64,000 bases of DNA from Raillietiella orientalis (Eukaryota). Shown here in pieces: positions 8,301-50,303 of the stretch. The stretch spans positions 496,001 to 560,000 of the forward strand of contig JAYWIR010000015.1 in assembly GCA_036172245.1 (NCBI GenBank). The letters run 5' to 3'. The notes under the pieces are model-generated. The model worked only from the letters and a program-made list of their open reading frames with translations. It had not been told where the DNA came from and did not search any database. The position numbers and the translations under genes were made by a program. The number at the start of each line of letters is the position of its first letter. Position 1 is the first letter of the stretch.

Positions 8301-10026
8301 TTACATCCATCCATGTGTTAATAGAAGGGCCTCTCATTTTACTTTTGGCATGTTTAATTTCCTTTGTTTCTTCTTTGCATTTACTCTTAGACATCAACAA
8401 AGATCTTTGATATGTAGTCAAACCTGCAATAGCAATGTGTAATGACATGGTGTCCAAGAATCGCAAACCAGATTCCTGGAAGGAACATTATTTTTTAGTT
8501 TTTGTAGTTCTGATTTTTGTATTATATATACTTTCCCTTACAGAGAATCAATAATCTTTTACCTGAATTGAATACTGCTCCTGTACTCTAGCTCGATCAT
8601 AACTCACATTATGACCAATTACAACTCTTTTTTGGCTGTTATGTCCATCCTGAGATGCTGATGACTCAAGAGCAATCAAATGATGCAAACGGATACAATT
8701 GTCCCATTCCTTTCTGTCACTCACAAGATGGTTACTGCACCAAGAGTACCTACAAAAAGCTATAAAGCATGTGATATTTTGATCTTTTGTACCAAGAATT
8801 GGAAGATGCAGCTACAGCAAGCACAGGGCCAGGACCTTCAGATAAAAGGACTTCTACATCAAAAATCAATGTATCATCTCTTGGATAATCAATTTGCACA
8901 GAAGTTCCATCATTAAAATACTGTGTCCAGCCTTTCTAAAAAATCAAAAACTTTTATTTTATTTCGATTTTACTGTGTTCTGCTTTGAAACACTGAGATA
9001 TAAATAACTTTGCATGAGAACTAATTAGTGAATTCACATGCAACACTATTTATAATATCTAAGCACTAGTTTTTTAATACAAACTTCCTTTCCTCTGCAC
9101 GGTCAAATACATCTGATACATCAGGATTTCAATTACTGTATTGTTTAGATGTCTTCAATTTCACACTCGCTGATTTGGCCACAAACATCAGACATACAGA
9201 TGTTTAACTCATTCTGAATACTAATTATTGGAATGAAAACTATATCACATTACAGATTAGTTATGTTCCAAAACAAGTTTTCAAAGAGTTCAAAAATGAT
9301 ATTATAAATTATATCATTTAGTTAATTTTGTATCATTTTATATCATTTGTTTTCTTCATATGTTATAGTAAATTAGAACACGCTATATGGGAATTCCAAT
9401 TACTGCTGCGTTTGTGACCATGTGTAAATAAATAAAATGCGAACTTTACAACTAATGCCTTCAAAGAAGAAAAAAAATTTAACCTCAAATTTCCAAATTT
9501 TTGGCATTTGTGGAAGATTATCTGAATGAAACTTTTGCAAAAGTCTTCTATAATCAGCTACTTGTTGTTCACCAATTATCGAAAAATGCTCAACAATGTT
9601 CTTCCCAAGTAATAAAGGTAATGTGAAATTTATATTACTAATTGGACTGGCACTTTGATTCCAAAGTTTATGATGGCTCAATGTTTTTACGCATTCCTGT
9701 ATTGTTTCACTTTTTGCAATGCATCTTTCACTATGGGGAAACAGTTGTGCATATAAATCATCTGAAATCATTTGGATGTTAAATGAATTGAAAACTGCTT
9801 CATTTTTATGGCGAGCAGATGGTGTCTCTTTGCTAAGAGTTTGACCATTTCTCAGATCTGAGGGAATTTTCCTTTCTTCAACAATCCTCTCGTTAGGTGG
9901 TGGATTTACTTCTTTCAGGTCTCCAATTTTTTTCTTGTTCAATGTTTTCTTCGTGAAATATGCCAATCTCTTGCGATGGATGGAATTTGAGACCTCCGCA
10001 ACACGAATCACCGTTGTTCTTAGCAT
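5362..10026 (-). CDS. POLG: DNA polymerase subunit gamma-1, mitochondrial (17 exons, ~1138 aa)
   Basis: Exons 9484-10026, 8793-8935, 8563-8749, 8269-8475, 8060-8226, 7834-8016, 7695-7791, 7363-7649, 7188-7325, 7053-7143, 6899-7008, 6513-6855, 6264-6467, 6087-6218, 5884-6042, 5583-5834, 5362-5535. All introns are GT-AG and exons sum to 3417 nt. Motifs: ExoI FDVEV, Exo[12 protein letters not shown], Pol[12 protein letters not shown], Pol[17 protein letters not shown], Pol[10 protein letters not shown]-terminal [14 protein letters not shown]. The N-terminus MLRTTVIRV... resembles a targeting peptide; start codon choice is inferred. Confidence 0.96.
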
Positions 10027-10824
10027 CGCATCGTCAAAATAATCTGCTGAAGCTTCCTTCACCTAAGACACATTGGATTATGCATCCCATGCTTTCCCTA
10101 TGATGAATTCCTTCCATGAACACACGGAACACACAGGGCAACCACATCGTGACCGTGCACTGTGCTTTCCACCACGACAGACTTCAAAATGTCAGTGATT
10201 TTACAAACGTTAATGAAACGGGAAGGAAAACGAAAAGCATCCCGGTATTTGGTTGAAATATTTCAAAACAATCAAGTTCTTATATGCGATTCTTCCGAAA
10301 GCTTGCATAAAATTTACGAAACCATTGTGGATAAATTTTTTTAGGAAACAGGACGCTTAAATTCGAGGGTCTTTAAGAAAAATTGCATCTATATAAACAC
10401 TCGCCAAAATAATCCGATAACGGAGGCTACGTGTTAAATACGTGCTGAACACTCAAAAATTTGTAATAAAATCTTCCTAAATACAAGATTTTCTCGATCA
10501 ACTAATCAGCAAGTTTCATTTTTGTATCTTTTATTTTTCGTTCTACGCAAAATCTTGATTTGGAAATGAAAATATGGAGCTCCATAGTTTACAACTTCCA
10601 GACTCCTTTCCTCCTTATATGGAACTATGTTTATTTTGAAGAAATTTGTTTCTGGGCACTGCTTTTCCCATTCCCTCGAGTTCTTAAAAGTTCCTTCTAA
10701 CCACCATAACTCGAGAAAGAAATTGTCCACATCAGTGTCATTACATGTCAATAATTGTTTCTAATGTACATAACATATATTATGCTGATCATGAGCATGA
10801 GAATCAGAAACATACCATTATAAA

Positions 10825-19044: not shown

Positions 19045-22000
19045 TTATAGGTTCTCGGCATCACAGTCTTCCTCTTTTGTATGGATATCCAACTCGCATC
19101 CTGGATTTACATCCAAAGATTTGTCTTCCTTCAGTAATTCACCAGAGTTAAGATCAACAACTTCTAGATTCTCCACATGATCATCATTGGTTAAGTTGTT
19201 GTCAGTCTTTTCATAGTGAAATAAAGAGTGACAGTGATGATTTTCCTTTGTATCATCATCATGTCTTACACCTTCCAGATGGCTTATTATATCTATTGCA
19301 TCCAGCATTAAAAAAGCTTCTGGCTTAAGTGCATTCTTTGGTGGCCTAAAGTGGCACTTAACATGTTCACGTAGAAAATGCAACTGTGGAGCTGAGTAAT
19401 CACAATGGGAACAGTTATACTGGCTAAGAACACCATTATGGCGATGTCTAAAACTATGGCTTTTCTGGTGATCCCTCTTAAGACTGTTAAAAGGGCAATA
19501 GGAACAAAAGTACACTTTTTTACTCTCTTCTCTGAGAGAGACGCTTTTCTGTTTCAACTCTTGTAAAATCAACTGCTGTCTTTCAACTAAAGTCAATGGA
19601 TGGGTGGTGGATACAGTATGATTCAACATATGGGTCTGATTATGAGAGCACATCACCTTTACATTCACATTCTCTGGTTGATCATTGTCGGAAAACATGC
19701 AAGAATCTGCTGGTCGAGCAACAGTCGGATCATGAACTGGGGTGCCTTGTTGGCGTAAAACTTCTTCAAACCGCTGATGCTTTTCTATATGTTGAAGGTA
19801 ATTGGCATAGTATTTAACTGAATAAGAACATTTTTCACAAGTATATCGATTCCGTGCACCATGAAGGGTTAAATGGATTTTATACTGATCTCTCTTTTCA
19901 AGCGCTGTTGGGCATTTTGGGCATTTATAGCGCTTTTCTTTCACTTTGCCATTTTTAATAACTGTTGGGTACACAAAGGCTGGATTTCCTATTCTTGCAG
20001 GGTCATTATTTCTATTATACCCTCTAATACCTTCCGAAATACCATCCTTCACTTCACTATATCTGTTCTGCTTATGCTGATATTCTAGTTTTCGTTTAAG
20101 TAAATCAACACCAGACATAGGAATGTCTTCATATTTACGAAAACGCTTTCTACCTGCATCTGTATAACTGTCAATTTCTATTTCAATATCATTTGGCATA
20201 ACTTCCATACTTTCGGAACTTTCGGCCTTGCAACGAGATTCCCATTCTTCATGGATGGCTTGGTGCCGAATCAAATTATCCATGGTATCTATTGCATAAT
20301 CACAGTCTCGGCGATCACAAGTGTACCGTCCTTTACTACCATGCAATCCTAAATGATAATTGAGGTTTGCAGACTTCATAAATTTAGAAGGGCACTTAGG
20401 ACAAGAGAGCACTCGATCTCTACCACAAGCTGAACTAACGTCAGAATCTGCCTTGAATGAGGAAGATTCCTCCAGGTCTTCATATGCTTCAGCTCGGTAA
20501 TATGACACTTGGCAATCAGAAGGCAAATCTGCCAAGACTACATCTGGAACAGGATATTCGTCTGAGACATGATGATCCTGCAATAAATTAATGGTTTTTT
20601 GCAAATATTCTTCTGAGTGTACTTTCATATGAGCTAGCAAATGTGCTTCTTGACGTGCTGTATAACTACAAGTCTCACACTTATACTGCAACTTCACAAT
20701 ATGGAATTTTTTATGGATTTCAATTTCTGTGCTTTTCAGAAATCGTGCTGGGCAATACTGACAAAAATACATCAAGGGTTTGCCCATCTGGTTATTTTCT
20801 TCTACACTGGGCAAATACATGCTTTCAGATTTATTTTTCGCAAAATCTGATGGTGACCCCAAAACAGCTGTATGACTTATTTCTCGAACTTGTTCTGCAT
20901 CACTTCGGCGGCTATCAACTAAGCCATGCAACTTGCCTAACTTATGTCGATGCACTCGCATGTGGACAGCTATCACACCTGGATTGGAGCAGCTGTAATT
21001 GCAAAGCGTACATGTGTGCATGTGACTGTTCAGTTTGCGTCCATGCATTTTTTCATGTTCATGGATATTAGATTTACGCAAGTTCACATGTGGACAGTAA
21101 TGACACTTGAACATTTTGTAAAACCGATTTCCTCTAGAAACCCAAACAAGAGGTACATCTCCTCTAGTTTGAGGTTCTCCTTGCAAAGCACTTTGCAAAC
21201 GTGAACCAATTGGCAGATCAGATTCTGGATGTGCTGGTTGATCCTCATGTTCCTTTTGCTGGTGCACTTTAAGATGTTGGTTCAACAGGTGACGACGACT
21301 AACATTATAGGTGCAAAAATTGCATTTGTACTGGGCAGCACGCAGTGGTCTGTGAAACTGTTTATGGTACAAGAACTGGCTGCGACTATTGGTGACATAG
21401 GGGCAATTGATACAATGATAACGTTTCCCTAACTCTGAATTTTCTTCAGAACTCTGTAAAGTTTGTGAAAGTTTTCCGATTTCATGAAAGAAACACACTC
21501 ACCCCAACTGCAGACGATGTTCGATTGCCATTTTTAACTTCTCCAGCAGCACGTGCATTTCTTTCTAATACTTGGGTTAAAAATTGCTGTGGCTCTTTGA
21601 CTCCATGGAGTTTCATATGTTGATTTAAAGCTCTAGCATGTGCATTGAAGCAATTGCTTACTGATTACTCATTTACCTTTTCACAGACACATAATATGGG
21701 CAAAACATGCATTTGAAAATGGCATCTGGTCTTTGAATATGAGTTTGCAAATGAACTTTCATTTCCTGCCGTTTTTTACATATGTAAGGGCAAATCTTAC
21801 ATTGAAAGGACATATCTTTGAATATAAATTCTGCACTTATATCTGTTAAAAACATAAAATGTTATAATTTTCATGAATTATAGCAATTCCAAACCTTTGC
21901 TTTCTTTAGCATTTGATTCACTTTCTTCATTGGAATTATGTACTGGTGTTTTGGAACTATTTTCAATCACAGATATGTTCCCATTATGCTTCAGCCGACA

Positions 22001-25000
22001 GTGACGCTAAATAAGAATACTGACTGAGTAAGTAGTCAGATAATTAACCCAAAGAAACTAATAGCAATCAGAGTTATACTTAAAGCAGCATTAAGCAAAA
22101 GCACCAATTACCAAGAAACATAATTAATGGAAAAACAGAAAGCAGGAAGATATCTAGATAGTACCCAACACCAAGTCACCTGGATAACATGCTTCCAATT
22201 GGATACCTGCTCACAATACCCACACTTAAACAAGGGCAGAGCAAGCTTCACATTCTTATCCGTGTAATGCTCCCTTATGTGCTTTAGAATGGTCTCCTTA
22301 TTACTACTTCTGCAATAAAAAAGCATAGTACCACCAATAGGCATAAATTGCCAACAGAGCAAGCATGATTGTAATATGACAGTGCAAAGAAATCCCAAAG
22401 ATTTGCAATCCTGAACAACTAGCGAAAGATAAAAGCTGCTTCCATCACCTCAAATCTATCAGGATGGTTTCAACTATTTTCTCTCCAAAAACAAAACTAT
22501 TATTTACCCTTACTACTGATTGCCAGTTGGAAGTAAATCCACAGAAACCACATAAAAAGAAATTTTGCATACTGTAGTGCTTGGCCATGTGAGCCAAAAC
22601 CATTCTCTTATCTGGACGTCTATTTGAAAAATTCCAGAAATGAAGTACAAAAATAACAAACTATATTCATTATACAGAAACTGCTAATCAATGGATAGAA
22701 AAATTTGATACTTCCTTTAATGAAATTCATAAGATGTGTACAAACTACTCAAAAATAATGTGATCTGTTTACTCTGGTAACAAAATAAAAGTACTCAGAT
22801 TTACCTGTAGTTACATTTTTTGCACTTCCAAACAGTCGTTTTCTTGGGAATACCCTGGTCAGTTACAAATACTTTGGTTTTTTCTGGCTCTGGTCTTTCA
22901 TCAAAATCACAAGATCTTTTCAATGAATGATGCTTATTTTTCATTTGATCTGTTAATTGAAATTTTTCTGACAAAGAATTGCTAACACTGCCAGCTGGAT
23001 AAATTGATACTTCGGGTTTAATTTGGTAATCAGACAAAGAAGAGAGGTGGGACATATCTTGAGAAAATTGACCCAAATATTGAGAATTCATTGTTCTTGA
23101 GTTACTTGAGTAGTTTAGTTTTTGAGTATTTGAAACATGTGTTGATGTTAACTTTGTGGACAACGAAAACCTCCTTGAGTTGTTCTGTGATGACATAATC
23201 TGATAGGGCTGCATCTGTGGAGAATTAGAATGCAAGATACCAGTATTTTTAATAAGTGATGAGGTTCCAGAAGACCCCATAAACAATTTAGAATTTTTGG
23301 AGGAATCTTCAAACTTTGCTTTCTCTAAATTTAAATGATCAAACTTTCTGGAATATCTGCCAAGTTTTTTTGTTTCATTGGTATTTAGTAACTTTGAATT
23401 CTTACTCCCATATCGTGTCATGGTTCGAGTAGTTTTTCTTTTTGGTATTATGTCAGCATTCCTGAAATTTGGACCACGGCCTTCTATAGACATAAGTGTA
23501 ATGTACTTTTCATATTTTTCATAATTTCGTTCCCCACTATTATCAGTCATCATCACAACAGCATCACAATGGATTTCATCACGGTTGGCTTTCAATCGAA
23601 TATGCTTTGTAATATCCCAACGCCAATTAGATTTATAACTGCAAGCAGAACACTTGAAAGGTTTCATATTTAAATGTCCAACAATATGCACATGAAATCT
23701 AGATGCCGTTGTAGCCCAAAAGGAACAATCTGGACACTTGTACACTTTCTTCATTTTCACTGTTTCAGTTCCATCATTGGTATACATAATTTCACCTTCA
23801 TTATCTTCATTCATAGATGAAGAATCAGGAGTGCCAATACTTTCATTATAAAAGCTAGAACGAGATGCTGGTCTAGAAGAAGGTTCTTCTTTACAGTTTT
23901 CCCAATCCATCTCGGAACCATGATTCAAGGATTCCTCTTCCGAACTATTACAAAATCTATTCCACACAAACACTTTATTTTCCATGGGATGTGGTTCTTG
24001 ACGTCCAGGATCACTATTTGAAGCTTCATTAGTTATGATGATGTTATCTGCAATTGAACCAGTGATTTTCGTTATTAGATCATCCTGATTCTGTTCCTTT
24101 TTGTATGCCACTGCTGCTTCACAAACTTTTTCATGATGTGACAGATCCATTTCAGTCTTACAACGCCTTCTACAGAATTGACATCTGGTTCCTCTCACAC
24201 TTGAACCACTGTTTTTCTGCGAAGTAATATGGATTTTTTGATGGTGCAATGCTTCAGAAAGGCATTTAGCTTTGTAATTACATTCAGAACAAATCAGATT
24301 GTTAGCATCAACTTGTGCTATTTTCTGTTTGAAATTATCAAAAAATGAACATGATCTGATCTTCTTGGATTTTATCGCAGAATCAATAGATTCACTGTAT
24401 GAGGAAGTATCAATTTCAGTTTTTACTAGAGATCTCTGATCCGAATTGTCATCTCCTTTTAGTTCAACGTTCTCACTAGACAGACTTAAAATCCCATTTG
24501 TATAATCTGATTTTTCATCATCAAAACTTTCATGTGGTGCCTTCAGAAATGATGGAACTTTCAGAATCATGGGAGAAGCATCTTCCCTCGCATTCTCCAT
24601 TTTTATTCTGGGTGCATCTGAATTTTTTTTCTCATGCTCATGAACTTTTTTATAATGCTTTAAAAGATCAACTTCAAAAGCGGTTTTAAAATTACATTTA
24701 TCACACTTTATATCTTTTATAAACATCTGGCCATTTTTTTGCACAATATCATCTGGATGTACAAAATCTGAACCAAATCTATGCCTTTCCTTTTGCTGTT
24801 TGATTTTACTTTTTTTCAAAATAATTTTTATCTTTGGTTGTTTCTTATTACCATTCTTCACATTACCAGATCCTAGATTAGAATTGCTATCACCACCAAC
24901 GGACTCAAAGGTGCTAATCGATTTTTTTGCTTTTTCTTTCTTTAATGAGAGAAAATTTTCCTTATTATAATTATCTTTGGATCCTGAGAAGTCATTGGAT

Positions 25001-26058
25001 AAACTGCCTGAAACATAGTCAGACTCATCTAGTTCCTCCACATTTTCAAAATCATAGAAGGGCATTTCATTCAAAGTAGGTTTTTTCCTTATTCGTCTAG
25101 TAACGGATTCACCTCGTTTCAAATGATGGTGCTGAATATGAAATGTCAAACTCTGTCGAATGTGTGCTGTAAAATTGCACTTCTGACATTTATACAAGCC
25201 ACCACCAACATGGTTCTTCATATGTCTATCCAGATTCCACTTATAAGGTGTTCGGAAATCACACAAATCACATTTGACCATGGGCATATTATGATATTTC
25301 ATATGTTTTGTGAATCTGGCTTTCACCCAAGTAACATAGTTACACTTTTTACAACGGTAGAACTTCTTTTTAAGATGAGCCACAGCTTCATGTCTTTTCA
25401 TGAGAAGGGAGCTCTTAGTTTTGAAACTACATAGTGAACATTTAGTTATATCAAAATTCTTAACACTTTTATCACCAGAAGTAAGGCAATCCTCATACAT
25501 GAGTGTTTCCTCAGATACCATCTGAAACTCATGATCTAGTTTTTTCACGTGTTCTGGTTTTTCGAATGGGAAAACTTCTGGATCTGACTGTCCTTTGGGG
25601 CTAGTGGGGGTCAAAAATGTTCTAGGGCTAACTGGCGCAGAATATGATATTCGGGGACTCATTTTGGGGCCACGGGATTTTAGATTCTTATCCGTCTTAT
25701 GGGAACCACCTTTTTTATCGTGAATCATTTTATAATGTCTTTGAAGTTTCTGACTATGTCGAGAAGCGTACACACATTCGGGGCACTCATAAATTCGGAA
25801 TCTTTGGCCATGCACATTCTTAATATGATATAAGTACTCTCTTGGATTTTGAGTAAAATAACCACACCAGCTGCAATTATAGTTGCGCTTGATTTTGACA
25901 TCAGGTAAATCTTGCACTGATGTGCCCTTAATTGCCTCCCGATCTAGTTTTTGCTCAGCACCATTTGCTATACTTTCCAAACTGAATTCAGCACCGCCAT
26001 TTTCCTCCGAAACATGTTCAGCTTCTAGGATATTTCGCGTGTCATCAGCTTCTTCCAT
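19045..26058 (-). CDS. Large multi-C2H2 zinc-finger protein (~2060 or 2066 aa depending on the alternative exon)
   Basis: Exons 22805-26058, [22508-22619 OR 22180-22309], 21895-22006, 21677-21842, 21503-21632, 19045-21453. GT-AG junctions keep frame (6183 nt with the first alternative). Many dispersed CxxC-x12-HxxxH fingers, e.g. YKCPDCSFWATTASRFHVHIVGH and FKCSACSYKSNWRWDITKHIRLK. From memory it resembles an insect CG9932-type factor, but this is unverified. Confidence 0.93.
22180..22309 (-). other. Zinc-finger gene alternative exon B (130 nt, phase 2 to 0)
   Basis: TTTTTTATTGCAG|acceptor, GTGACT donor. Encodes (R)SSNKETILKHIREHYTDKNVKLALPLFKCGYCEQVSNWKHVIQ. Confidence 0.88.
22508..22619 (-). 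other. Zinc-finger gene alternative exon A (112 nt, phase 2 to 0)
   Basis: TTTTTCAAATAG|acceptor, GTAAAT donor. Encodes (R)RPDKRMVLAHMAKHYSMQNFFLCGFCGFTSNWQSVVR. Confidence 0.85.
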
Positions 26059-29000
26059 TTCAACCGAAGGCCGTCACTACCACTTCTAAAAATATGCAAT
26101 TACTTGTCATTAATGTTCCTGTGAGGGAAAGAAACCAACGTAATCTCATGTATTTCGTCCGATGCAAAATTTGATTTTATACGAAATGCAACACGTTTCG
26201 CATGCTTTTTTTTTTTTTTTCCTTTTCTTTTCTTTTCTTTTTCTTTTTTTTTTTTTTCTTTTTACTCTTTTATAGAGAGAAGGGCAGCGTAGGACGAAAA
26301 GATTCCAAGAACTTTGCGTTGTAATGCAGTGGACCTCAAGAAGCACGCCCGCTCTTACAGCAGCGTTTATTAGTCACAGTTGTGCAATGGATTCTGTTGC
26401 CCGAAAACGAATGGTAAAATAACACGATCGTCTACGTTTTTTTTTTTTTTCCTTCTCCGCAATTTTCAAAAAAAAAAGAAAAGGAAAAAAAATACATTTT
26501 TGAAAAGAGTTCACCGCATCTGCTGGAAAATGTAAACACCATTCGCGCTAGCGTTTAAAGTTCCTGAGGTCGCATTCCACGATAAGTATCTGAATCATAT
26601 GTAAAACCCGAGGAGCAAAGCATTTGAGTCTCTTGTTTCTACGAGTTTACTTTTTTCGATAATAGTGATAATGATAATGATGTTAAGAGGCACACTTTAT
26701 GGTGCTTCACTTCCGCACTTTTAACGAGTTGTATACACTGCCTCGGAGTCATGAGGTGTTACCTATTTGCCTTATTTATTAAGGGTATCATAAGTGTGGC
26801 ATGGGTATGTTCCACAAATCCGATAAATGCAGCTATTTGCCCATAAATGCGGTTGTTTTCATCTTAAGAGAACGCACTGTGTGAATGGTAAAAAAAAAAA
26901 AAAAAAAAATCAAACCATCGTTGCTTGCAGTACACTGTTTAGGCGGATAAAACCGTAACACACAAGTTAAACAAAAAAAAACACACACACACACATTAAA
27001 AAAAACTACTGACATCGATAGTTTAGCTGGCGAAGCTGTTAGCATGCTACAAAGCCATAAAAATCTTCCAAAACATCACATACACACAAAATCTCCCGAA
27101 ATAACTTCGTGCAATAGAAGATTGAAAAGGAAGAACAAAAAGGATTCCACTGACTGGAGCTTCATTATTTTCACTGCTTCCAGATCTCGGAACACCAATT
27201 CTGGATGCATAGAGAATACAGTATTCCTGCAAGCAGGTCTCAAGTACTTAACATCCACTAACGTTACAAGCAACACGGGATGCAACGAAACAGTTCAATA
27301 AACACCGACACGAAACGGTACCATTATTTTTTGCCCGCGCCGAAGGAAAAAAGAGCAGCCGAATTTATGTAAAAGACACACTCCAACAGATTCTCCAGAC
27401 GATTTTGTACATGATAAGGTACTTTCGCTTTACTTTCACAAACTTTTCGAAGACTCTTCGAAGTACTCTGGGCAAATCCTATGCAAAGAGAATTTTCTTC
27501 CGTCTTTCCATGTAGACGGTTTTGACTCGGTCAACGAAAGTCTTTCCGAGGAGAGGGGGAAAAAAGAATAAAGATAATGTTGCAACTAAAACTGATCGTT
27601 CGACAGATTAAAGGCTCAATGAAGCACTGCCGTGTTTTTTGGAAATCAAACAGCACACTGGGCTAATAGCTTGCTAATGCCTTTTGTGCACTTCCTGTAT
27701 ACGGAAGACAAAGCCATATTAGATTCTACACATCACCAATGAAATGAAGCTGCTGGGAAGGTTCTATTTAAAAGTGCGCTTCCAAAGTAAGAGGAGTAGG
27801 CATTCTTTTTCTTTTCTTGGTTTAAACTGCTGGATTTTTCACATCCCACTACTCACCAATGGGCTATATTTAGAATGGCAGTTTCCATTGGCAAATTAGA
27901 GGAAACCCAACTTTTCTTCCAGGAGCAATCTTTGATCCACTGGTTCGTATGTAACTACATACTGACAAGTCTTTTTTTCCTTATTTATCACAGCCATGCT
28001 TTTATCACGTGCTTCCATTGTGAAAAAAGTGGCAGTGTACGTCCTCCTTAACTACACGCAATTTCACGGTTACATTCAAAAGGCATATTGGAAAATTTCT
28101 GCAAAAGTATTATTATTATTATTATTTTAATCTCTCCCCAAGAAGTATCTATTTTTTTGCATTCATCCGAGAAGCACCCCCTCCCTCCTCTCCAAAAAAT
28201 AACACGGCGGACACTGATGTGCGCTGCCCCCCATGCAATACAGACTCGGCTTTCCAAGTGCTTGCAATGTGTTCCTTTTTTGCTGCTCACTTGCATTTTG
28301 AAACCGAGGATCCGGACATTCCACAAACAAGAGAATCCGTCACTCACCACACGAACATGTCAGAAAATTCCAGGGGTCACCGCCAACTCTTGACCACTTG
28401 TGTGGGCTTGACCACTTCCCCCCCGAGTTCACATTTACGACGAGCGTCGGTCAGCAAAAGTTCCCATCAACTGACCGCCGTCTTTCGAAGCACCCAAAGC
28501 ACCTTCTGCACTGTGGCCTGCGAGGAACCACAAAAACGAACACATGTCAACAACACCGCAGTGTCCCACGACGGCGGCAGACGCGCTGCTGCGGCGACGC
28601 CGACTGGAAAGAACGATGCACGCTCTTCGCAGCGTGCCCTCAAGACTTCCCAAAAGGGTATTTAGGGGCCGGCACTGTGCAGCTGGGAGGGAACCCGCGG
28701 CAGATGATTTGCCGTTTCTGCCGAGAAGAGCGAGCGCGAGTGCACCGTGCGAGGTGCCACGGACGAAGAAGACATCTATCTCTCTCTCTACCTGCACACT
28801 CTACTTCTAACGCCAGTCTTGTGCGGTGCGCGTCGCGCGAACTTTCCGATTGGACGGAACCACCAATTTGCAGAAGAAAAAAAAAAAAAAAAAAAAAAAA
28901 AAGGGCCTGAACAAGCGAGGATTCTTGAAAACAGAAAGAAAAACACTGCCACATCAGGCACTCTACAGTGTCACCGTTGCACGTCGAAGCTTTCGAAAGA

Positions 29001-32666: not shown

Positions 32667-35600
32667 GTGATGGGGGATGGGGGCTCTGCATGCTTTTGGG
32701 TTTCATGTGCGTATGAGTCTTTTTTAGAGGATTGGAAGGGGGGGGGGTTGTTTTTTTTCCTTTTTTTTTTTTTTTTTTTTTTGGGAGGAGGGGGCGAGGA
32801 GAAGAAGGAAAGGAAGAGGAGGAGATTGGTTTCTTCCTCCTCCTCCTCCTCCTCCTCCTTGTTCCCCTCCCTTCTTTGTCTCTGCTGGTCTTCGGGAGAA
32901 AGCACGCGGGTCTCTTGCGCTGCCGTTTGGTAGTGGTAGGGTAGCGTCGAGAGGGAGGAGGGGAGGGAAAGGAAAGGGAAGGCAACCGCTTGGGTTCTCT
33001 TGCGCTCTTCCCCTTGCGCGCTTCCGCGCCTCGAGAGAGAAAAAAAAAAAAAAAAAAAAAAAGACCGACGGGTTGGGGAGAAAAGAACGCAGGGGCACCT
33101 ACGCGGCTTGGTCCGCACGCAGCGAAGGATGCGCTCCTTCCAGTTCGGCAAAGGGCACAAACAATGCGCGGTTTTCCCGAGCGAAAGAAAGGCCTGTCTT
33201 TCGCGCAAGGACGCGACCTAGATCAAAACCACGATCTCTCCCCGCCAGCTTCCCAAGCGCTGGCCGTAGAGTAGAGCCATCTTTACCGGCGAACGCGAAA
33301 TACCGGGAAGCGGGGAAGGAACGCAGGGGGAGTGTGCAAGAAGGTGACGAGTCGGGAAAGCCTCCTACGTGGCAAAATGGCTGCTGCTGCTGCTGCCGCT
33401 GCCCTCCCCTTGGCCGTCGCCTCCACCGCCGAGACCGACGCTGACGTCGATGGTAACGATGGCGGTGGAAGCGACGACGATGAAGAGGCCGCTTCAAGGT
33501 TTTTTTTTTTTTTTTTCCTTTTCGTTTCCTTTTATTTGTTTCATCTTTTTTATTTTTATTTTATTTTATTCTGTTTTCGAGGGCTCTCTGCGCCCCCTTT
33601 TGTCCCTTCTTTTCTTCCTCTCTCTTTCGCTCTCCCCTTCTTTTGAGGGTCTGTAGACGCGTCCTCAAAAATTCCGCCCGACGCAGCAGCAGCAGCGCTC
33701 CCTGCCGGGCGTGGAACTCGCGTCGAGCGGAACACGAGCCGTGCCCAGCCCGTCGCCTCTACACAAAGAGGCAGGCGGGGGCGGTGTGTGGCAAACCTCC
33801 TGTGCGCCAGCTATCGCCCGAGCATCGCGTGGCGATAATGGCGGAGGAGAGGGGGGGAGGGGAGGAGGGGGTAGCGGGCGGGGCATGAAGAAAAAGGGGG
33901 GGGGGGGAAAGAGGAGGTTGAACGTCCTCTTGAGCGCGCGTCGCACCGGTGGACTTCTTTCCCCGCGCACAAGAAAGGGGACAAAGAAATCCCGTCTTCC
34001 TCTTGTTCCTTTTCTTCGCGGAGGAGGAGGAGGAAGGGTACGAGTTGCAGACAGCACATACCCCTCTCCTTCCCCCCCGCGCATATCGAGGTCGCGGTTG
34101 TAGTCGCGCAGCTGGGGGTGATGGTCGTGATGGCGGTGGCTCCTCGGCTTGGACCACCGACCAACCGTCAGCTCCAAGCCGCGCAGGCATTCTGGGTGTG
34201 TGTGTGTGGGGGGGGGATTCGGGTCGTCGTCATCGTGTTTGCCGCAGCCCCCGGCGCCCCGAGACGACGACCACGCGGGGGACTCGTGGGCTCGTCCAGC
34301 AGTAGCAGCCCCAGGCTGTGCGCGCGCACAGCGTTCGCGAGGTACCGGCGACACCGGTAGATGGCGTTGCGACGAGCCGTCGTCGCAAGAACGGCAGCGG
34401 CGTGGCTGCGGGTCGTCTTTGTGCGCGAGTGACGCTCGCCCCGCGCCCTTCCCGGGTCGCGGATGGCGGCGCGGAACGCTCCGGTCTTCTCCTCCCGCGA
34501 GCGGGCGAGGAAGCGGCCACTGCGAGAGGAGGAGCAGGGAGGGCGAGAGAGCGAGGAGGGAGTGGAAGGGACGGCGGCGACCAGACCTCTGCGCGGCTTC
34601 TCGACGCGGACGGCGGCGGCTAATGCCGACGCGCGCTCTCATGGTCGGTCGCCGTGGAAACGGCTGCGCGCAGGGCGACACGACAGGTCCGCCGGGGTGG
34701 AGCAGCGCGGGAGACGGCTGTCAGGAGACCGTCCGGGAGGGTGGAAGCAGGCTGCTGGCGGTGAGGGCTCTTTCTCCGCCCCATTTCCTTTCCAGAGGGA
34801 CGGAAGGGACGCCCTGAGGGCGTGAGGAAGAGCGTCCTTTCTCCTCTCCCTCCTTCCCTTGTTCTTCGGACGTAAGAAGACACGCGTCCGGCGTTCCCTG
34901 CAACGAGGCTCGCTCGCTCTGTTCCCCTTCCCCCATCTGGACACGGAGAAATATGCACCGGTTCAGTGGGGAGGGGATGCCTTGACATGGGCTCTTCGGA
35001 GGATTTGGTCTACCGCCGTCGGGAGGACATGGGGGTGGAGGGGAAGGGGTAGAGAGGTCGCCACGCCGACAGAGGGGAGGATATACTCTCAGATTCCTCC
35101 TTTTCACCCCCTCCCCGGTAAGGTGCGGATCTCGGTTGCCTTGGAGACAGAGATCGGAAGTCTGGCTCGCCCTCTGGAGGAGAGGAGTAGGTGCAACAGC
35201 GATGCTGTTGAGAAGGGCAGGGAGGGAACGAGAATCACCCTGCCCATGAGCAGGGGAGTGCGCTCACCTATCCTCTTTGCCCTTCGATGAGCCACCCCCT
35301 ACCTTCACCCCTCCTACCCCTTCACTCCGGACTGAAGGAATCGGACGCGTCCTTCGCTCCAAGGGGCGTTTCCAGCCGGTGTGGGGGAGGATGAGGGCGG
35401 TGGAGCTTCGCGTCACCCTCCTGCCGGAGCGTAGTTCCTCTCTCTACTGCCGGAAGGGCTTCCCAGAAAAGGCCCTACTTGCTGGTCTCCTCCAGCCGTC
35501 GATCCAGCGGGAATGTGCAGGTCCAATGTATGTGGGGGGGGGGTCAGGAGGAGGGGTTGGGAATTGTGCTCCGTCCCTCCGGGAAGAAGGAAAGAAGGAA

Positions 35601-38600
35601 TCGCCGACCTGCCTGAAGGACGCGGGACGGACGCCCCTCGCTGCTGCTCAAGGTCACGAGCACGCATTAGCGGCGCTCCTCTCCGAGTGGGGTGCTCACG
35701 TGTCGCGGTGGAAACGAGGGGGACGAGGCGGCGAAGAAGGGAAAGGGGGGGAGAGGGATTGCAGCCCGGCAGGGACATCGACCTCCCCTCCTCCTCCTCC
35801 TCCTCCTGTGGAAGGGACAGGACCGAACCAGGGATGACTTGGGAAAGTCGGAAGATCCGGTCTCCTCCCTGCCGGGAGGAGACGAGAAAGGTGGAGGAGG
35901 GAAAGGAAGGAGGAGGGAGGGGACGGGGTAACGTCCTTCCCTTCCCTATCATCCCTAAACCCCTTTTCGGGACCAAAGAGGGGGTGCATCCGGGCAGCGA
36001 CCCCCCGTTCCGACCTCCGCGGAAGAAGAGGGGGGGGAAGACTGCGGAGCCGCCGCCTCCTCTCGCTAGGGCGTCGCGAGAATTCCCGAGACGTCGGAAT
36101 GCTGGAAAGGAAAGGTGATCTGCTGACTTCCGGGACGCGCTCCTGGAATTTCAAGGGGGGGAGGGGATGCACCTCGCATTCGGGAGGGGGCGAGAAGTCG
36201 TCCTGGTACTGTCCATGGCAACTCACCCTCTGCAGCGGCGGTGGCGGCTGGCTGCCCGCCTTCTCTTTAGCTTCCCCACTCGGGGGACACCGAACAAGAA
36301 GAGGGTCACGAAGGAGGCCGAGGGGGGAGCCGAACCTCCCTGGCAACGCTGCGGAAGAAGGGAAGAACCTTGCTTCTGGCGATACCCTATCGATAGCAGG
36401 GAGCATGAAGAAGGGGAGGGAAAGGGACGTGAAAAGCAGGAAGAGGCGCGCGCTTCCCTTCTCTCGCCGATCCCGACGAACCTGACCAAATAACCCGCCG
36501 ACTCCTCCTCCCACGCCGAGCTCAGAAGGCAGGGAGCAGCGGAGACCCTCCCATCTCCTCTCACTGGGGTGGCAGCAGAAGTACCCTAAGCGGCAGAAAC
36601 GTCCCTCCCCCTTTTTCCCCTCCTGCTGCCCCCCCGGACACCTTCCTCTGCCGGTAGGGGGAAAGCCAGGGCGCAGATCGCTCATCTTTTCATCCCCTGC
36701 CTCCCCCCTCCCAGCCTCTTCCGAACGGGCTGGCGGCTCCGCCAGTCGCCGTGGCTTCCAGGAGGGGGAGCGGACGCGACCGAGAATAGCGCAGTGCTCT
36801 TGGAGACGGTGGTAAGGAGAGGGAGGAGATCAACGGAGGAATTCTTCCCCCTTCCCTTCCTCTCCCTCTTCCTCCTCATCTCCTTCCCGTCTTGCTGCTG
36901 CTGATACTCCTCCTTCCTTCCCCCTCGGTCCCGCGGTCATCGACGAAGCATCCGGAGGCCGCCAAAAGGGCGACGTCCAGGACGAGGCTCCGAGAGGCGA
37001 CGGACTCCCTCCCCCGCTCCCACGCCACCTCGGGTCGCGCAAAAGATCATGGCAGAGCTTCAGCCATGAGGGAACTGCCGGACCGCATCTGAGAGGCAGC
37101 TGTTGCCGAGGGCAACCGGTGCGGCAGGGGAGGAGGAGGAGGGCGGTGGCGGTGTGTCCGTGCGCCCGCTGTTCCCTCCAGCAGCCGACGGGAAGAGCGC
37201 GGATGCGAAGAAGGAAGGGGAAAAGGGGGAGGAAGCGGTCGTCGGTGAATGAGGGATCCCTGCGACCGCCCTTCTAGGAAGGGAGCATCCACTGGCAGGA
37301 TCCTCGGGGAAACGGGCAGCCTCTGTTCCCCTTCCCTCCCCCCCTCCCCTCCTCCTCCTCTCCGATACGCGCGTCACGTGAGAGGGCGCCGCAGCACGCC
37401 GGAAGCGGCGGAGGATGCGGGCGGAGGCCCGCGTTAGGGAACGCCACCGGCGAGCCTTTGTCCTCGCTGATTCGGGGAAAGCGGCGGCAGCGCCCCGGTT
37501 ACCGGGGCAACGCGATCGCCCCTCGCCGCGGCGCGGAGACGCGAGAACCGCTGCTACTGCGGCCTCCTCCTCCTCCTCCCACGCGTTCCTTCCGGCGTGG
37601 GATCTTGGGGAAAGCACGGGGAGCAGGAAAAGCAGGGGGCCAGCAGCAAGCGTTGCTGGTAGACCGCTCGCGTCTCCCAGTGGAACCGTGAGCCCTGCGC
37701 GCGTGAGGGCTGGCGATTGGCGGAGACTCTCGGACATACGCGCGGAGCGGAGCCAGGTGCCCCTCCCTCCCTCCCTCTGGAGGGGGAAGGAAAAAAGCAA
37801 ACAAGAAAGCAGGAAAAAAAAAAGAAGGGACGGAAGGATGGTGACGCGTCCCACCCCTGGTTCCGGGAGGTCCCGGCTCGATCGCGTCCGCTCCCGCGCA
37901 AGAGCGCAAGAGCTCGCGTCCGCGGGAGCACGGGAGAGGGGGGAGGGGAAGGGAAGGAGGAAGGAGATGGAAAGAGGGGCTGGCTGTTTCGGATCACGAA
38001 AGATGGCGTCATCTCTCTCATGTCTCTCCTCCCTCCCTCCCTCCCTCCCTCGCTTGGCTGCCGCTCACATCTGCGTGGGCTCTTCTGGGTTTCCGGTCGC
38101 CGTTCCCAAGGCAACGCCGCGCGCGCGCGACAGTCGCCGGGGTCACAACGCTCCGTGCCCTCTCTCCGGCCGTCCTGTTCTTCCCGCCTGTGCCTTCGCT
38201 CCTTCTCCCCCCGGCGGCAGAGGGGGGAGGGAGATGACGCGGAGCTCCCGAGGGATCGCTGGGCGCTTCCCTGCCGTTCACACTCCCCGAGGGATGGGGA
38301 CGACGAGGAATAAGAGACGTTAGCAGCTGCTCCGAGGGATGGTGGATGTGGGGACATCTCGGTGGCACCCTGCCCCTGCTTCCCTCCTTCCTCTGTGACG
38401 TTCCGCTCTAGGCGATACAGAGATCCTCAGGCCGAGGTCACCCGGGGGAGGGATGGGGGCGGTGAGCATCGACCAGGACGCGTCCCTCTGGAAGAGGGGA
38501 GTCCTGCCCCGGCATTCGCAGAATGGATCCTATGCGGAAGGATCCGCTCGCCCCTTTCCCTCCCTCCCTCACGAGAGGGGGGGGGGGGGGGACGCGGCGC

Positions 38601-40224
38601 TTTCACTTTCCGTGGTGCAGGCTGCGAGGAGGCCCTGCCTCCTCTCTCCCTTGGGAAGGAACAGGGAACGCGGCGAAAGGTCGCTGCTCGCCGGGATCTC
38701 TGCCTCGAACGCGTCGGGGCTGGCAACGAGGAGGGGTGTTGGTGGGGAAGGGGACGCGCGAAGTGCAGCCGCCCTCGCCAACCACCCTCCATCCCAGGAG
38801 AGACAGGATCGCCCTGCTCTCCCCGACCAGGGGCTCCGCTGGCGACCCCTTTCAGGGGAAGAGGGAGCGCGTGGGGGGCGGTCGAGGACAGCAGCTCGGG
38901 GGACGCCCTTGGTCGGCGGAAAGAAGGAGCACACCGGGAGGCTCTAAGAAGAAGGGCCGGAGGCGACACGGAAAGAGGAAGGAGGGAAGCAGGAGGGGAT
39001 GTCTCTGAGCCCCTCTTCCCGTCCTCGAAGAAGGGAAAGAGGAACTGTTCCTCCCTCCCATCTTTGAGGAGGAGTCCCGTAAGAGGGATGCCAGCGCCGA
39101 GCTCGGTTTCTCCGGACTCGCTAAGGGGCCGTGGCAGGGCGTTCCCCGGCCCTTTTTCCGGGAAGGTTGGGGCGGCGGACGGTGTAGCAGCGGCCAACGG
39201 TGGCGGGGACACGTCCTTCTGCCACCCCTCCCCCTCCCGCAGCGAAAGTCTCTCTTTTCCGTCGTCTTCCGCGCAGCCCTCGCGTAGCCACGGTTACGGA
39301 CGAAGGCGCGCGCTGCTCCGCGGCAGCTTTTTTCTCCCCGTCCTCCTTTCCGGGGCGCGCGCGGGTTTTTCTCCTCCCGTCGGCACGCCACGGCTTCTCC
39401 TTTGTCCCTGAGGCGGCGGCGGCGGTGGCAGCCATCTTGGATACCCGCCGCTCCCAGATGCTTCGTCCTCCTCCTCCTCCCCTTTCACTTCTTCCTCGCG
39501 CGCCCCTCCGACCGTGGGGCTGGCTGCCTTCCCGTGCCGCTGCGGGGAGCCGCCGCGGCTGAACGGCAGCGCGCTTCCCTCTTCTGCTTCTTGCTCTTCC
39601 CCGCCGCCGCCATCTTTGCTTCGGCCCTCGCGCGCATGCTACCAATCCTCCTCCTCCTCCTCCTCCTGTCGCCTGTCCGCGCCCTCTCTCGTGCGCGACT
39701 TCTTCAAGAGCTCCCGTCGAAGAAACGTCTCCTTCTCGAGAGCGGTTCGGATGCCTTCCGGGCGGAATTTCCGAGCGTCCGCTTGCACTCTCTCTTTCTC
39801 CCTCTCCGTCCCTCCCCCCTCTTTCTTCCCCCTACCTCTCCCTTCCCCCGTTCCCTGATTCTTCCCTCTCCCCATCTCCGCTTTTCTCCGCCGCACCGGT
39901 CGCGTGCGACTCATCCCTGAGCGTTCCTCCCGAGCTGGGTCAGGCGGCGGAGGCAGCAGCAGCAGCAGCAGCAGCCGACAGCGACAACGACGCGCTTCCT
40001 CTCCCCCCTTTTTCTTTCGCCCTGCCGCGTCACTCCCCCTGCCCTCTCGCCGCCGTCACGCGTTCCTGGCTCCTGCTGGAACGCGCGCGCGGTTCCGTTT
40101 CTTCGCGCGCGCGGAACTCGCGGCAGCGGCAGCGAAGGAGCAGCAGCGCGCGTCCGCCTCCTTTTCCTCCCTCTCCCTCCTCCCTTCCTCTTGGGCGTGG
40201 GGCGCTGCTCGCGTTCCTCGGAGG

Positions 40225-40251
40225 TGCTGCTGCTGCTGCTGCTGCTGCTGC
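40225..40251. repeat. (TGC)9 triplet repeat
   Basis: Seen directly. Confidence 0.95.
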
Positions 40252-40792
40252 ACGCGTTCTCTCTCGTCGTCTCCGTGCAAGTCTCGCGGAGGAGGAGGAA
40301 GCAGACGGCAGCGGCAGAGTTGCTTCCCCGCCCCCCTCCAGTGCTCTCGGCCTTCTTCGCGACTTCGCTCGCCCTCTCCTCCTCTTCTTCCCCCGTTCTT
40401 CGGCTCTCACACGCCACGCTCACGCATTCTTTCTTTATCTCCAGTAGTTGCTGTTCTTCCCTCCTCCTCCTCCTCCTCCTCCGCTTCCGTCTGCCGTCTT
40501 CCTGCGCCGCCGCCGCCTCCTTCGCGTTTCTTCGGCCCGCGCGCGGAGGTGAAAGCGGTCGTTCGGCAAGGCACGCGGGGAAGCCGCGCGCGAGCGAGCG
40601 CTTCGAGCGGCAGCAGCGACGACACCAACGCCACGGTTCCTCTTCCTCCCCCCTCCTTTTTTTCTCCGCTTCCTCTCCCGCTGACGACGCGCCTAAGTAG
40701 GGCTGAGCCCCCATCGCGGCCTTCCTTCCGTTGCCGGGCATCCTCCGTCGGTCTGGTTCCACGGAAGATGCCGCCCTCCCCGGAACGCGCGG

Positions 40793-41148: not shown

Positions 41149-41180
<32 letters not shown>

Positions 41181-50288: not shown

Positions 50289-50303
50289 GCGCGCGCGCGC
50301 GCG

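What the first reader, a model, noticed from the sequence alone, without database searches (positions are those of the whole stretch)
22180..22619. Tandem duplicated, mutually exclusive exons rewire two adjacent C2H2 fingers
Seen: two homologous exons (A 22508-22619, B 22180-22309) share phase 2 to 0. Either one completes the finger begun by CKKCNYR (A: ..RPDKRMVLAHMAKH; B: ..SSNKETILKHIREH, both exact C-x2-C-x12-H-x3-H) and begins the next finger, which is finished by the common exon RHCRLKH (A: CGFCGFTSNWQSVVR; B: CGYCEQVSNWKHVIQ). Including both or skipping both shifts the frame. Exon A is absent from the supplied ORF track. Established: helix positions -1/2/3/6 govern C2H2 base contacts. 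Here they switch from D/R/M/A to N/E/T/K in finger 1 and from W/S/V/R to W/H/V/R in finger 2, and the linker differs by 6 aa. Inference: a splicing switch yields two isoforms of a ~2060-aa regulator with different binding or spacing properties.
Basis: partly seen in the sequence, partly recalled or inferred. Interest (0 to 1): 0.85.

Follow-up and report, generated by a model that had tools for sequence, protein, structure and literature searches.

The report
Ancient alternative exons swapping zinc-finger halves
Two neighbouring look-alike exons in an arthropod zinc-finger gene appear to be used one at a time, giving two versions of a pair of zinc fingers. Water fleas, brine shrimp and barnacles carry the same pair, so the switch is real and very old, but it is a known kind of splicing.

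Summary
On the minus strand, exon A (22508-22619, 112 nt) and exon B (22180-22309, 130 nt) lie between an exon ending CKKCNY+AG and one starting RHCRLKH. All sites are AG/GT and both exons run phase 2 to 0. Including both gives K plus three stops; skipping both gives a stop after five codons. A and B are each other's best match in the window.

The gene is the arthropod orthologue of Drosophila CG9932, a ~2000-aa C2H2 protein. RefSeq isoform pairs of Daphnia magna and Artemia franciscana differ only by an A-type versus a B-type cassette at this junction. A Daphnia-like contig (L002) shows the same order, phases and frame trap in DNA. A barnacle gene model holds both exons in tandem.

Window exons A and B are 71-79% identical to their Daphnia counterparts, against ~30-34% for the large flanking exons.

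No RNA run was listed for this organism, so usage here is inferred. Different binding properties are untested.

Verdict: a real, ancient mutually exclusive exon pair and a new member of a known kind. I found no paper describing it.

The parts
22805..26058 (-). Large upstream coding exon. It runs from the first ATG of the open frame and ends CKKCNY + AG (phase 2). It supplies the Cys pair and beta-hairpin of finger 1.
   Evidence: ORF. Orthologue matches (E to 2.5e-167). Donor CAG|GTAAAT read. The true 5' end of the exon was not determined.
22620..22804 (-). Intron between the upstream exon and exon A (185 nt, GT...AG).
22508..22619 (-). Exon A (112 nt, phase 2 to 0). It holds the recognition helix and both His of finger 1, an 8-aa linker, and the Cys pair plus first part of the helix of finger 2. 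This is the 'A-type' cassette (..DKRMVLAHMAKH..SNWQSVVR).
   Evidence: 71% identical over 35 aa to the Daphnia pulex A isoform. 20-23 of 29 finger positions match A-type cassettes of Daphnia, Artemia and Pollicipes.
22310..22507 (-). Intron between exon A and exon B (198 nt, GTAAAT...TTGCAG).
   Evidence: Too long for steric exclusion. No convincing docking/selector pairing was found.
22180..22309 (-). Exon B (130 nt, phase 2 to 0). It encodes the same structural parts as exon A but with a 14-aa linker. This is the 'B-type' cassette (..SNWKHVIQ). Read after exon A it opens AAG TAG TAA TAA.
   Evidence: 79% identical over 19 aa to the Daphnia pulex B isoform. 14-19 of 29 finger positions match B-type cassettes (an underestimate for Daphnia, where finger 1 is H-x4-H).
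22205..22207 (-). Internal CAG|GT (GTATCC) inside exon B, a possible alternative donor. Using it would remove the 27 nt coding VSNWKHVIQ in frame. This is hypothetical here.
   Evidence: Sequence. The corresponding 'C..C.Q|RHCRLKH' forms occur in 5 of 348 stored proteins: 3 beetle models and 2 unnamed transcript-length records.
22007..22179 (-). Intron between exon B and the common exon (173 nt, GTGACT...TTTAG).
21895..22006 (-). Common exon starting RHCRLKHNGNISVIEN. It supplies helix position +6 and both His of finger 2. The 3' end at AAAG|GTTTGG is inferred from frame continuity with the next exon.
   Evidence: 84% identical over 19 aa to Daphnia. The junction just before RHCRLKH is shared by the orthologue isoforms compared.
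19048..21498 (-). Large 3' coding region of the same gene (817-aa open frame with many C2H2 fingers). The stop is at 19045-19047.
   Evidence: Matches to Pollicipes, Amphibalanus and Blattella of 494-514 bits.

Best explanation
Exons A and B are a tandem-duplicated, mutually exclusive exon pair in the orthologue of Drosophila CG9932, a ~2000-aa multi-C2H2 putative transcription factor. Each mRNA takes one of them.

Shown: both exons have the same phase (2 to 0) and both are 1 mod 3. Joining both puts three stop codons at the start of B, and joining neither gives a stop five codons into the next exon. Only the A-only and B-only mRNAs therefore encode the full protein.

Inferred: the frame trap, with decay or uselessness of the truncated products, is what makes the choice exclusive. 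No RNA-structure, U12 or short-intron mechanism was found.

Shown: the cassette carries the helix and His pair of finger 1, the inter-finger linker, and the Cys pair plus first helix turn of finger 2. The switch therefore rebuilds two adjacent fingers around shared halves. The A form keeps a canonical-length linker (8 aa here, 7 aa in every other A-type cassette seen). The B form has a longer, lineage-variable linker (14 aa here; 28-73 aa in insects, Artemia and Daphnia; 5 aa in Amphibalanus).

Shown: the pair exists in branchiopods and barnacles with the same order and phases.

Inferred: the pair predates the split of those lineages. The two isoforms bind different targets or partners, A as a coupled two-finger unit and B as two loosely tethered fingers.
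For: Anatomy and frame trap.

A-B homology beyond generic finger similarity. The normalised global score is 0.31-0.35, and 0 of 5000 shuffles reach it.

Orthologue isoforms:
- D. magna X3 vs X1 have identical prefixes of 834 aa and suffixes of 888 aa. The only difference is an A cassette of 36 aa against a B cassette of 93 aa.
- Artemia X2 vs X1 have a 643-aa prefix and a 572-aa suffix. The difference is A 36 aa against B 64 aa.
- D. pulex X6/X7 carry A and X3/X4 carry B.

DNA of a Daphnia-like contig, L002: up-exon, then A (109 nt), B (292 nt) and the common exon. All sites are GT-AG and both exons are 1 mod 3. A+B gives a stop after 2 codons; skipping gives a stop after 5.

Tandem A then B is also seen in an unnamed genomic ORF (P0331). 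It is seen again in the Amphibalanus model P0095, which reads through both.

Conservation against the Daphnia isoforms: exon A 71% over 35 aa, exon B 3' part 79% over 19 aa, common exon 84% over 19 aa, against 34% and 30% for the two large exons.

Six unnamed genomic ORFs carry the A peptide with at most one residue changed, while their intron-encoded flanks cannot be aligned.

On a 29-column tree the A rows (7) and B rows (9) each fall on one side of a single branch. Support is 76/82, and 98% of 200 bootstrap trees agree.

Only 2 of 348 stored proteins hold both motifs, and both are read-through artefacts.
Against: No RNA evidence exists for this organism: no run could be listed and no genome is held.

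The orthologue isoforms are automatic RefSeq models, and their read support could not be inspected here.

The tree rests on 29 columns and no branch reaches strong support.

Amphibalanus 'B' is intermediate between the types, with a short 5-aa linker and 12/29 vs 14/29 matches, so the A/B contrast in linker length is not universal.

No docking/selector pairing was found, so nothing beyond the reading frame is known to enforce exclusivity.

DNA binding by these fingers has never been shown. Exons A and B alone hit no Pfam model.
Confidence: 0.8

Rival explanations
1. One of the two exons is no longer spliced in this organism. It would be a silent relic of the ancestral pair, and the gene makes a single isoform.
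For: No RNA data are available for this organism. Lineages can simplify the locus: no A-type cassette was seen in any named insect protein among the 348 stored. Each barnacle RefSeq model shows only one type.
Against: Both exons keep canonical acceptor, polypyrimidine tract and donor. Both have open frames and all four zinc ligands in register. Both are 71-79% identical to counterparts in Daphnia, while the large flanking exons are ~30-34% identical. An unused exon would not stay that way over such a distance.
Confidence: 0.1
2. Both exons are included together through other splice sites, so they are consecutive constitutive exons giving extra fingers rather than alternatives.
For: One deposited Amphibalanus gene model (P0095) contains both cassettes in one protein.
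Against: That model joins them through 13 residues that start at the A donor (V = GT..). It also garbles the first half of exon A, which is typical of an ab initio frame rescue. The two RefSeq models of the same species carry B only. In the window, A+B with the mapped sites gives K and three stops. None of the Daphnia or Artemia isoforms seen holds both.
Confidence: 0.03
3. The exons are truly alternative, but the switch does not change nucleic-acid sequence specificity. It changes a protein or RNA partner, or only the spacing and flexibility between two structural fingers.
For: Finger 2 (SNW[KQ][HS]V[IV]..RHCRLKH) is nearly invariant from Daphnia to Drosophila. It has Trp at helix position -1 and, in B, no aromatic residue at the usual core position. 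That pattern is unusual for a base-reading finger. The clearest conserved A/B contrast is linker length.
Against: Finger 1 helix positions -1/2/3/6 differ completely between A and B (D/R/M/A vs N/E/T/K). Much of the finger-1 helix is type-specific and conserved within each type across Daphnia, Artemia and the window, as expected for a specificity determinant.
Confidence: 0.35

Closest known systems
Annotated isoforms of the orthologous gene in Daphnia magna (LOC116930407), D. pulex (LOC124209404) and Artemia franciscana (LOC136033109)
   Same: The same gene and the same junction, between C..C.F-K and RHCRLKH. The same two cassette types occur, used one or the other. A Daphnia-like contig shows the same order A then B, the same phases and the same frame trap in DNA.
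   Different: In Daphnia and Artemia the B cassette is 64-103 aa, with a long low-complexity linker. In the window it is 43 aa, so only here are the two exons of near-equal length. Those isoforms are database models, and I found no paper that describes them.
Drosophila melanogaster CG9932 (FBgn0262160). PMC10118385 calls it a C2H2 transcription factor with human orthologues listed as ZNF462/REST, and found it as a rapamycin-resistance hit on overexpression (abstract and passages read).
   Same: It is an orthologue. The exon junction immediately before RHCRLKH is conserved and is also a site of alternative splicing in flies.
   Different: The fly isoforms fetched have either the B-type first half of finger 2 or unrelated sequence before RHCRLKH (finger 2 on or off). 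No A-type cassette was seen in them.
U2AF1 exons Ab/3 in vertebrates (PMC5224494, passages read)
   Same: Tandem-duplicated homologous exons. [quoted passage not shown]
   Different: A different gene and domain: the U2AF1 exons encode part of the UHM and change seven residues. Regulation there was dissected experimentally; here nothing is known.
Docking-site/selector controlled exon clusters of insects (mentioned in PMC5224494; Dscam and 14-3-3 examples recalled from memory)
   Same: Arthropod clusters of homologous exons spliced one at a time.
   Different: No conserved or significant intronic pairing was found here. The cluster has only two members, and the reading frame alone would explain exclusivity.
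Splice variants that alter zinc-finger arrays: WT1 +/-KTS linker variant, and alternative finger-bearing 3' exons of BTB-ZF genes such as lola, fruitless and broad
   Same: Alternative splicing changes finger spacing or swaps fingers in a transcription factor.
   Different: Those use an alternative donor or alternative terminal exons carrying whole fingers. Here an internal cassette swaps the back half of one finger, the linker and the front half of the next.

Membership tests
Mutually exclusive spliced exons (criteria of Pillmann et al. 2011, PMC3228551, section 'Search algorithm' read) | Candidate exons lie next to each other between the same flanking exons | tested here: met
   Order on the minus strand: up-exon end 22805, A 22619-22508, B 22309-22180, common exon from 22006. 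No third copy in the window.
Mutually exclusive spliced exons (Pillmann et al. 2011) | Similar length (default at most 20 aa difference) | tested here: met
   37 vs 43 codons (112 vs 130 nt). The orthologous Daphnia pair (36 vs 93-103 aa) would fail this default.
Mutually exclusive spliced exons (Pillmann et al. 2011) | Conserved splice-site pattern and the same reading frame, with no in-frame stop | tested here: met
   All four introns are GT...AG. Both exons run phase 2 to 0 and are open.
Mutually exclusive spliced exons (Pillmann et al. 2011) | Homology: global BLOSUM62 score (gaps -10/-2) at least 15% of the self score | tested here: met
   73/208 = 0.35 and 73/236 = 0.31. 0 of 5000 shuffles reach 73. 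BLASTP E 2e-10.
Mutually exclusive spliced exons | Exactly one exon of the cluster is present in mature mRNA of this organism | not testable with these tools
   No RNA run could be listed and no genome is held.
Mutually exclusive spliced exons | Exactly one exon of the cluster is present in the orthologues' transcripts | tested here: met
   D. magna X3/X1 and Artemia X2/X1 differ only by the cassette. D. pulex X6/X7 carry A and X3/X4 carry B. This is annotation-level evidence only; read support was not visible.
Frame-enforced exclusivity (as for U2AF1 Ab/3, PMC5224494) | Inclusion of both exons, or of neither, creates premature stop codons | tested here: met
   A+B gives ...VVRK***. Skipping gives CNYSVTVG*. 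The same holds in L002. Actual decay of such mRNAs was not tested.
Docking-site/selector RNA-pairing controlled clusters | Competing complementary intronic elements, stronger than chance and conserved | tested here: inconclusive
   The longest inverted repeats are 24 nt at 71% complementarity. Whole-intron duplex energies: I1-I2 -63.9 vs -52.4 +/- 6.2 (9 of 200 shuffles as low), I2-I3 35 of 200, I1-I3 84 of 200. Conservation could not be tested.
U2/U12 spliceosome incompatibility | One of the competing introns carries U12-type sites (/[AG]TATCCTT donor; consensus recalled from memory) | tested here: not met
   The donors used are GTAAAT, GTAAAT and GTGACT. Only the unused internal GTATCC in exon B resembles a U12 donor.
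Steric-hindrance exclusivity | The intron between the two exons is too short to be spliced (threshold of roughly 60 nt recalled from memory) | tested here: not met
   The A-B intron is 198 nt, and 205 nt in L002.
CG9932 / ZNF462-like arthropod multi-C2H2 proteins | Full-length sequence similarity to the family and the near-invariant ..RHCRLKH.G.. finger | tested here: met
   140 proteins at E <= 1e-3 in the 'longer' search, best 2.5e-167, including D. melanogaster CG9932 isoform D. The RHC[RK][LM][KR]H motif gave 158 rows among the 297 proteins stored. Pfam: zf-H2C2_5 at 59.1 bits (cut-off 27); zf-C2H2_ZNF462 only 25.3 bits (cut-off 27).
Classical C2H2 zinc finger | C-x2-4-C-x12-H-x3-5-H spacing in both spliced forms | tested here: met
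   Finger 1 is C-x2-C-x12-H-x3-H and finger 2 is C-x2-C-x12-H-x4-H with either exon. Folding and zinc or DNA binding were not tested. The exon peptides alone hit no Pfam model.

The most novel reading that the evidence does not exclude
This is a pancrustacean-wide switch, hundreds of millions of years old. One internal cassette rebuilds two adjacent C2H2 fingers at once. Form A locks them into a canonical 7-8-aa-linker tandem unit with one recognition helix. Form B gives them a different helix and a long flexible tether. One gene thus encodes two regulators with different target sets. Insects then lost exon A and replaced the A/B switch with on/off splicing of finger 2 at the same junction.
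Probability: 0.45. Interest if true: 0.65.

Novelty: new member of a known kind. Interest (0 to 1): 0.45.

Why it matters
The case shows alternative splicing editing a zinc-finger array inside the fingers rather than adding or dropping whole fingers. The cassette boundaries cut finger 1 after its beta-hairpin and finger 2 within its helix, one residue before the first His, so shared halves are recombined with alternative halves. The pair is kept in the window organism, branchiopods and barnacles. It offers a natural experiment on how linker length and helix identity of a two-finger unit are used in vivo, and Daphnia and Artemia are tractable systems for testing it. It also flags an annotation problem. 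Single-isoform gene models of this gene pick A or B arbitrarily (Pollicipes has A, Amphibalanus has B), or wrongly fuse both (one Amphibalanus model).

Tried and rejected
- RNA evidence: the look-up of sequencing runs on 19045-26073 listed no RNA holder ('none was listed'). Read laying therefore could not be used.
- Whole genome: none is held for this window.
Resent as 40 aa, it found no candidate sharing three words.
- Full HMMER scan with exon A: 17 hits at E <= 1e-3. I fetched 7 of the 17. Six were A-type genomic ORFs without names and one was an old D. pulex partial model. No new named lineage emerged.
- Docking/selector RNA pairing: nothing convincing.
- U12 and steric mechanisms: rejected from the sequence.
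Orthologous DNA for exon A was obtained from only one contig (L002). The A/B divergence is far beyond saturation. I used identity contrasts instead.
- Structure prediction of the A and B two-finger modules: not attempted.
- Earlier notes of this scan: none for this genome, sequence or topic. The one note returned concerns giant-virus leaders and is unrelated.
- Literature: searches (mutually exclusive exons with zinc finger, Daphnia, C2H2 or tandem exon duplication; CG9932, 25 papers, listing only except PMC10118385) gave no description of this exon pair. The Kassiopeia paper text has 0 mentions of Daphnia, zinc finger or crustacea. Supplements were not opened.
- Rows dropped: one row (Lamprigera) failed extraction. 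In one search, three rows (Centruroides, P0099, P0100) were dropped because my pattern picked the wrong segment.
Full report
**1. The observation**

Read on the minus strand, the long open exon ends ...TGT AAC TAC AG at 22805 and is followed by GTAAAT.

- Exon A is 22619-22508: preceded by ...TTTTTCAAATAG, followed by GTAAAT, 112 nt.
- Exon B is 22309-22180: preceded by ...GCTTTTTTATTGCAG, followed by GTGACT, 130 nt.
- The next exon starts at 22006 after ...TTCTTATTTAG and reads RHCRLKHNGNISVIEN.

Both cassettes are 1 mod 3 and run from phase 2 to phase 0. A script that joined the exons by coordinates gave open frames for A-only and B-only. It gave ...VVRK followed by three stops for A+B, and CNYSVTVG-stop when both are skipped.

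**2. More than chance**

- BLASTP of A against B gives 35 bits, E 2e-10, 14/41 identical with one 6-aa gap.
- In a tblastn of both peptides against the whole window, each exon's best non-self hit is the other (34.7 bits). The best hit to any of the many other fingers of the same gene is 22.7 bits. There is no third copy.
- With the scoring of the WebScipio predictor (BLOSUM62, gaps -10/-2; method section read), the normalised score is 0.31-0.35 against a default threshold of 0.15. 0 of 5000 shuffles of B reach it.

**3. The gene**

The 1085-aa upstream exon finds 140 proteins of 1900-5000 aa at E <= 1e-3; 120 are listed and the best is 2.5e-167. Almost all are uncharacterised arthropod multi-C2H2 proteins.

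They include Drosophila melanogaster CG9932 isoform D. PMC10118385 describes CG9932 as a C2H2 transcription factor with human orthologues listed as ZNF462/REST. It found the gene as a rapamycin-resistance hit on overexpression (abstract and passages).

Nothing closer than about 36-45% identity was found. The organism is therefore an arthropod without a close relative in the protein collection. I did not determine which.

**4. The same switch in relatives**

Scanning the stored orthologues for the sequence before RHCRLKH showed two cassette types.

- A-type: HKDKRMVLAHMAKH, a 7-aa linker, then CG.CGKGSNWQSVIR. It occurs in Daphnia pulex X6/X7, D. magna X3 and a GenBank model, D. sinensis, Artemia franciscana X2 and the barnacle Pollicipes.
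- B-type: ...RE.VL.HIR..H, a long linker, then CG.C.QVSNWKHVIQ. It occurs in D. pulex X3/X4, D. pulicaria X2, D. magna X1/X2, Artemia X1/X3, the Amphibalanus RefSeq models, and the insect proteins with a complete finger 2.

Direct comparison:

- D. magna X3 and X1 are identical for 834 residues before and 888 residues after the cassette. They differ only by A (36 aa) versus B (93 aa).
- Artemia X2 and X1 are identical for 643 and 572 residues. They differ only by A (36 aa) versus B (64 aa).
- The D. pulex pairs swap the cassette at the same place and have one further difference downstream.

These are automatic RefSeq models. I could not see their read support.

**5. The same architecture in DNA**

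A scan of metagenome contigs with an alignment of A-type ORFs matched 40 stretches, of which 2 were confirmed. L002 is Daphnia-like by sequence and holds the whole unit:

| Feature | L002 |
|---|---|
| Upstream exon end | ...TTCAA\|GTAAGT (phase 2) |
| Exon A | 109 nt |
| A-B intron | 205 nt |
| Exon B | 292 nt |
| Common exon start | CGC CAT TGC |
| Splice sites | all GT-AG |
| Exon length mod 3 | both 1 |
| A+B | stop after two codons |
| Skip | stop after five codons |

An unnamed 177-aa genomic ORF (P0331) reads by chance through the A exon, the intron and the B exon in that order.

One deposited Amphibalanus model (P0095) contains ...HCGKPSNWQSVIR, then 13 residues starting at the donor, then the B cassette. 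The barnacle genome therefore also carries A upstream of B, although its RefSeq models show only B and the Pollicipes model only A.

Of 348 stored proteins, 17 have the A-type motif, 90 the B-type motif and only these 2 have both.

**6. Selection and age**

Against the window, identities of the Daphnia isoforms are:

| Region | Identity |
|---|---|
| Exon A (A isoform) | 71% over 35 aa |
| 3' part of exon B (B isoform) | 79% over 19 aa |
| Common exon (both isoforms) | 84% over 19 aa |
| Large upstream exon | 34% over 685 aa |
| Large downstream exon | 30% over ~615 aa |

Over 29 finger positions, window A matches A-type cassettes at 20-23 and B-types at 8-12. Window B matches B-types at 14-19 and A-types at 10-12.

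Six unnamed genomic ORFs keep the A peptide with at most one change, while their intron-encoded flanks are unalignable.

A maximum-likelihood tree of those 29 columns puts the 7 A rows and the 9 B rows on either side of one branch. Support is 76/82, and 98% of 200 bootstrap trees agree. Three rows were dropped for a faulty extraction. With so few columns this is modest support.

Branchiopods and barnacles belong to different major pancrustacean branches (established knowledge, recalled). The duplication therefore most likely predates their split. The spider protein in the tree has one cassette with a short linker and falls in neither group.

No named insect protein showed an A-type cassette. 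This is weak evidence of loss, because isoforms collapse into one cluster representative.

**7. A splicing hot spot**

The junction just before RHCRLKH is alternative in other arthropods too.

- Fly isoforms have either ...PYRCGHCHQVSNWKHVIQ or unrelated sequence before it.
- Several beetle models and one hemipteran transcript-derived protein join ...DE directly to it.
- Five proteins (three beetle models, two unnamed transcript-length records) read C..C.Q|RHCRLKH. That fits an internal donor at the Q-V codons.

Exon B of the window has CAG|GTATCC at that spot (22207|22206). Its use here is only a possibility.

**8. How exclusivity works**

Shown: the frame trap.

Not found:

- U12-type sites at the used junctions.
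- A short A-B intron; it is 198 nt.
- Convincing intronic pairing. The longest inverted repeats are 24 nt at 71% complementarity. Whole-intron duplex energy is at most marginal, with I1-I2 at 9 of 200 shuffles as low and the other pairs at 35 and 84 of 200.

The closest documented analogue is U2AF1 exons Ab/3. There, transcripts with both or neither exon carry stop codons and are removed by NMD (PMC5224494, passages). That the same happens here is inference.

**9. What the switch changes**

Shown: the cassette supplies the helix and His pair of finger 1, the linker, and the Cys pair and helix start of finger 2.

- Helix positions -1/2/3/6 of finger 1 change from D/R/M/A to N/E/T/K. In finger 2 only position 2 changes (S to H).
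- A-type linkers are 7-8 aa in all seven A-type cassettes tabulated. B-type linkers range from 5 aa (Amphibalanus) through 14 aa (window) to 73 aa (Daphnia).

Inferred: A is a coupled tandem pair, and B a pair of tethered fingers with a different finger-1 helix. Whether the ligand is DNA is unknown. Finger 2 has Trp at -1 and is almost invariant across pancrustaceans, which may point to a fixed partner rather than variable base reading.

**10. Limits**

- No RNA holder was listed for this organism and no genome is held.
- All three word-index protein searches are spent, and the last found nothing.
- No dN/dS and no structure prediction were possible.
- Literature searches and the Kassiopeia text gave no description of this exon pair. 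Supplements were not opened.

**11. Verdict**

The mutually exclusive reading is supported by orthologous isoforms, by orthologous DNA and by strong conservation of both exons. The mechanism class is well known: tandem-duplicated, frame-enforced mutually exclusive exons. The same pair is already implicit in database isoforms of Daphnia and Artemia. I rate it a new member of a known kind, of moderate interest, for two reasons: the unusual way it recombines halves of two zinc fingers, and its age.

Noticed in passing
window 33000-52000: A block of about 19-20 kb at 62-69% G+C sits inside a genome of 30-42% G+C. It has long open frames in all six frames and is rich in purine/pyrimidine runs. The six longest ORFs hit no Pfam family, no Rfam family matches anywhere in the window, and the only tandem repeat is (TC)n. 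Unexplained.
   Followed up: partly
window 40786-40970 and 41785-41980: Inside the G+C-rich block, two segments (76 nt at 78% and 69 nt at 86% identity) recur about 1 kb apart, suggesting a diverged duplication of about 1 kb.
   Followed up: no
window 22205-22207 (minus strand): Exon B contains an internal CAG|GTATCC. Using it would delete the 9 residues VSNWKHVIQ in frame. Matching 'C..C.Q|RHCRLKH' forms exist in 3 beetle models and 2 unnamed transcript-length proteins. GTATCC also resembles the start of a U12-type donor (consensus recalled from memory).
   Followed up: partly
window 22298-22309 (minus strand): If exon B is read after exon A, its first twelve bases give AAG TAG TAA TAA, three consecutive stops. 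This is a strong block on co-inclusion. In L002 the stop comes after two codons.
   Followed up: yes
orthologues (stored proteins P0027-P0094, P0013, P0015, P0200 and others): In flies, beetles and a leafhopper the first half of finger 2 is present in some isoforms. In others it is replaced by unrelated sequence at the same junction, which is on/off splicing of a single zinc finger. All Schistocerca isoforms seen lack the RHCRLKH exon altogether.
   Followed up: partly
stored protein P0095 (Amphibalanus GenBank model): This deposited gene model fuses the A-type and B-type cassettes through intron-derived residues and garbles the start of exon A. It is a likely mis-annotation caused by the exon pair.
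   Followed up: yes
window 5562-10062 (minus strand): Exons of a mitochondrial DNA polymerase gamma-like gene. Pfam DNApol_Exo scores 44 bits (cut-off 26.7). DNA_pol_A scores 34.1 and 21.1 bits, both just below its cut-off of 34.3.
   Followed up: partly
window 60667-61551 (minus strand): Two exons of a Peptidase_M24 gene, scoring 92 and 58.7 bits. It looks like an Xaa-Pro dipeptidase, but that name is recalled from memory and was not tested.
   Followed up: partly
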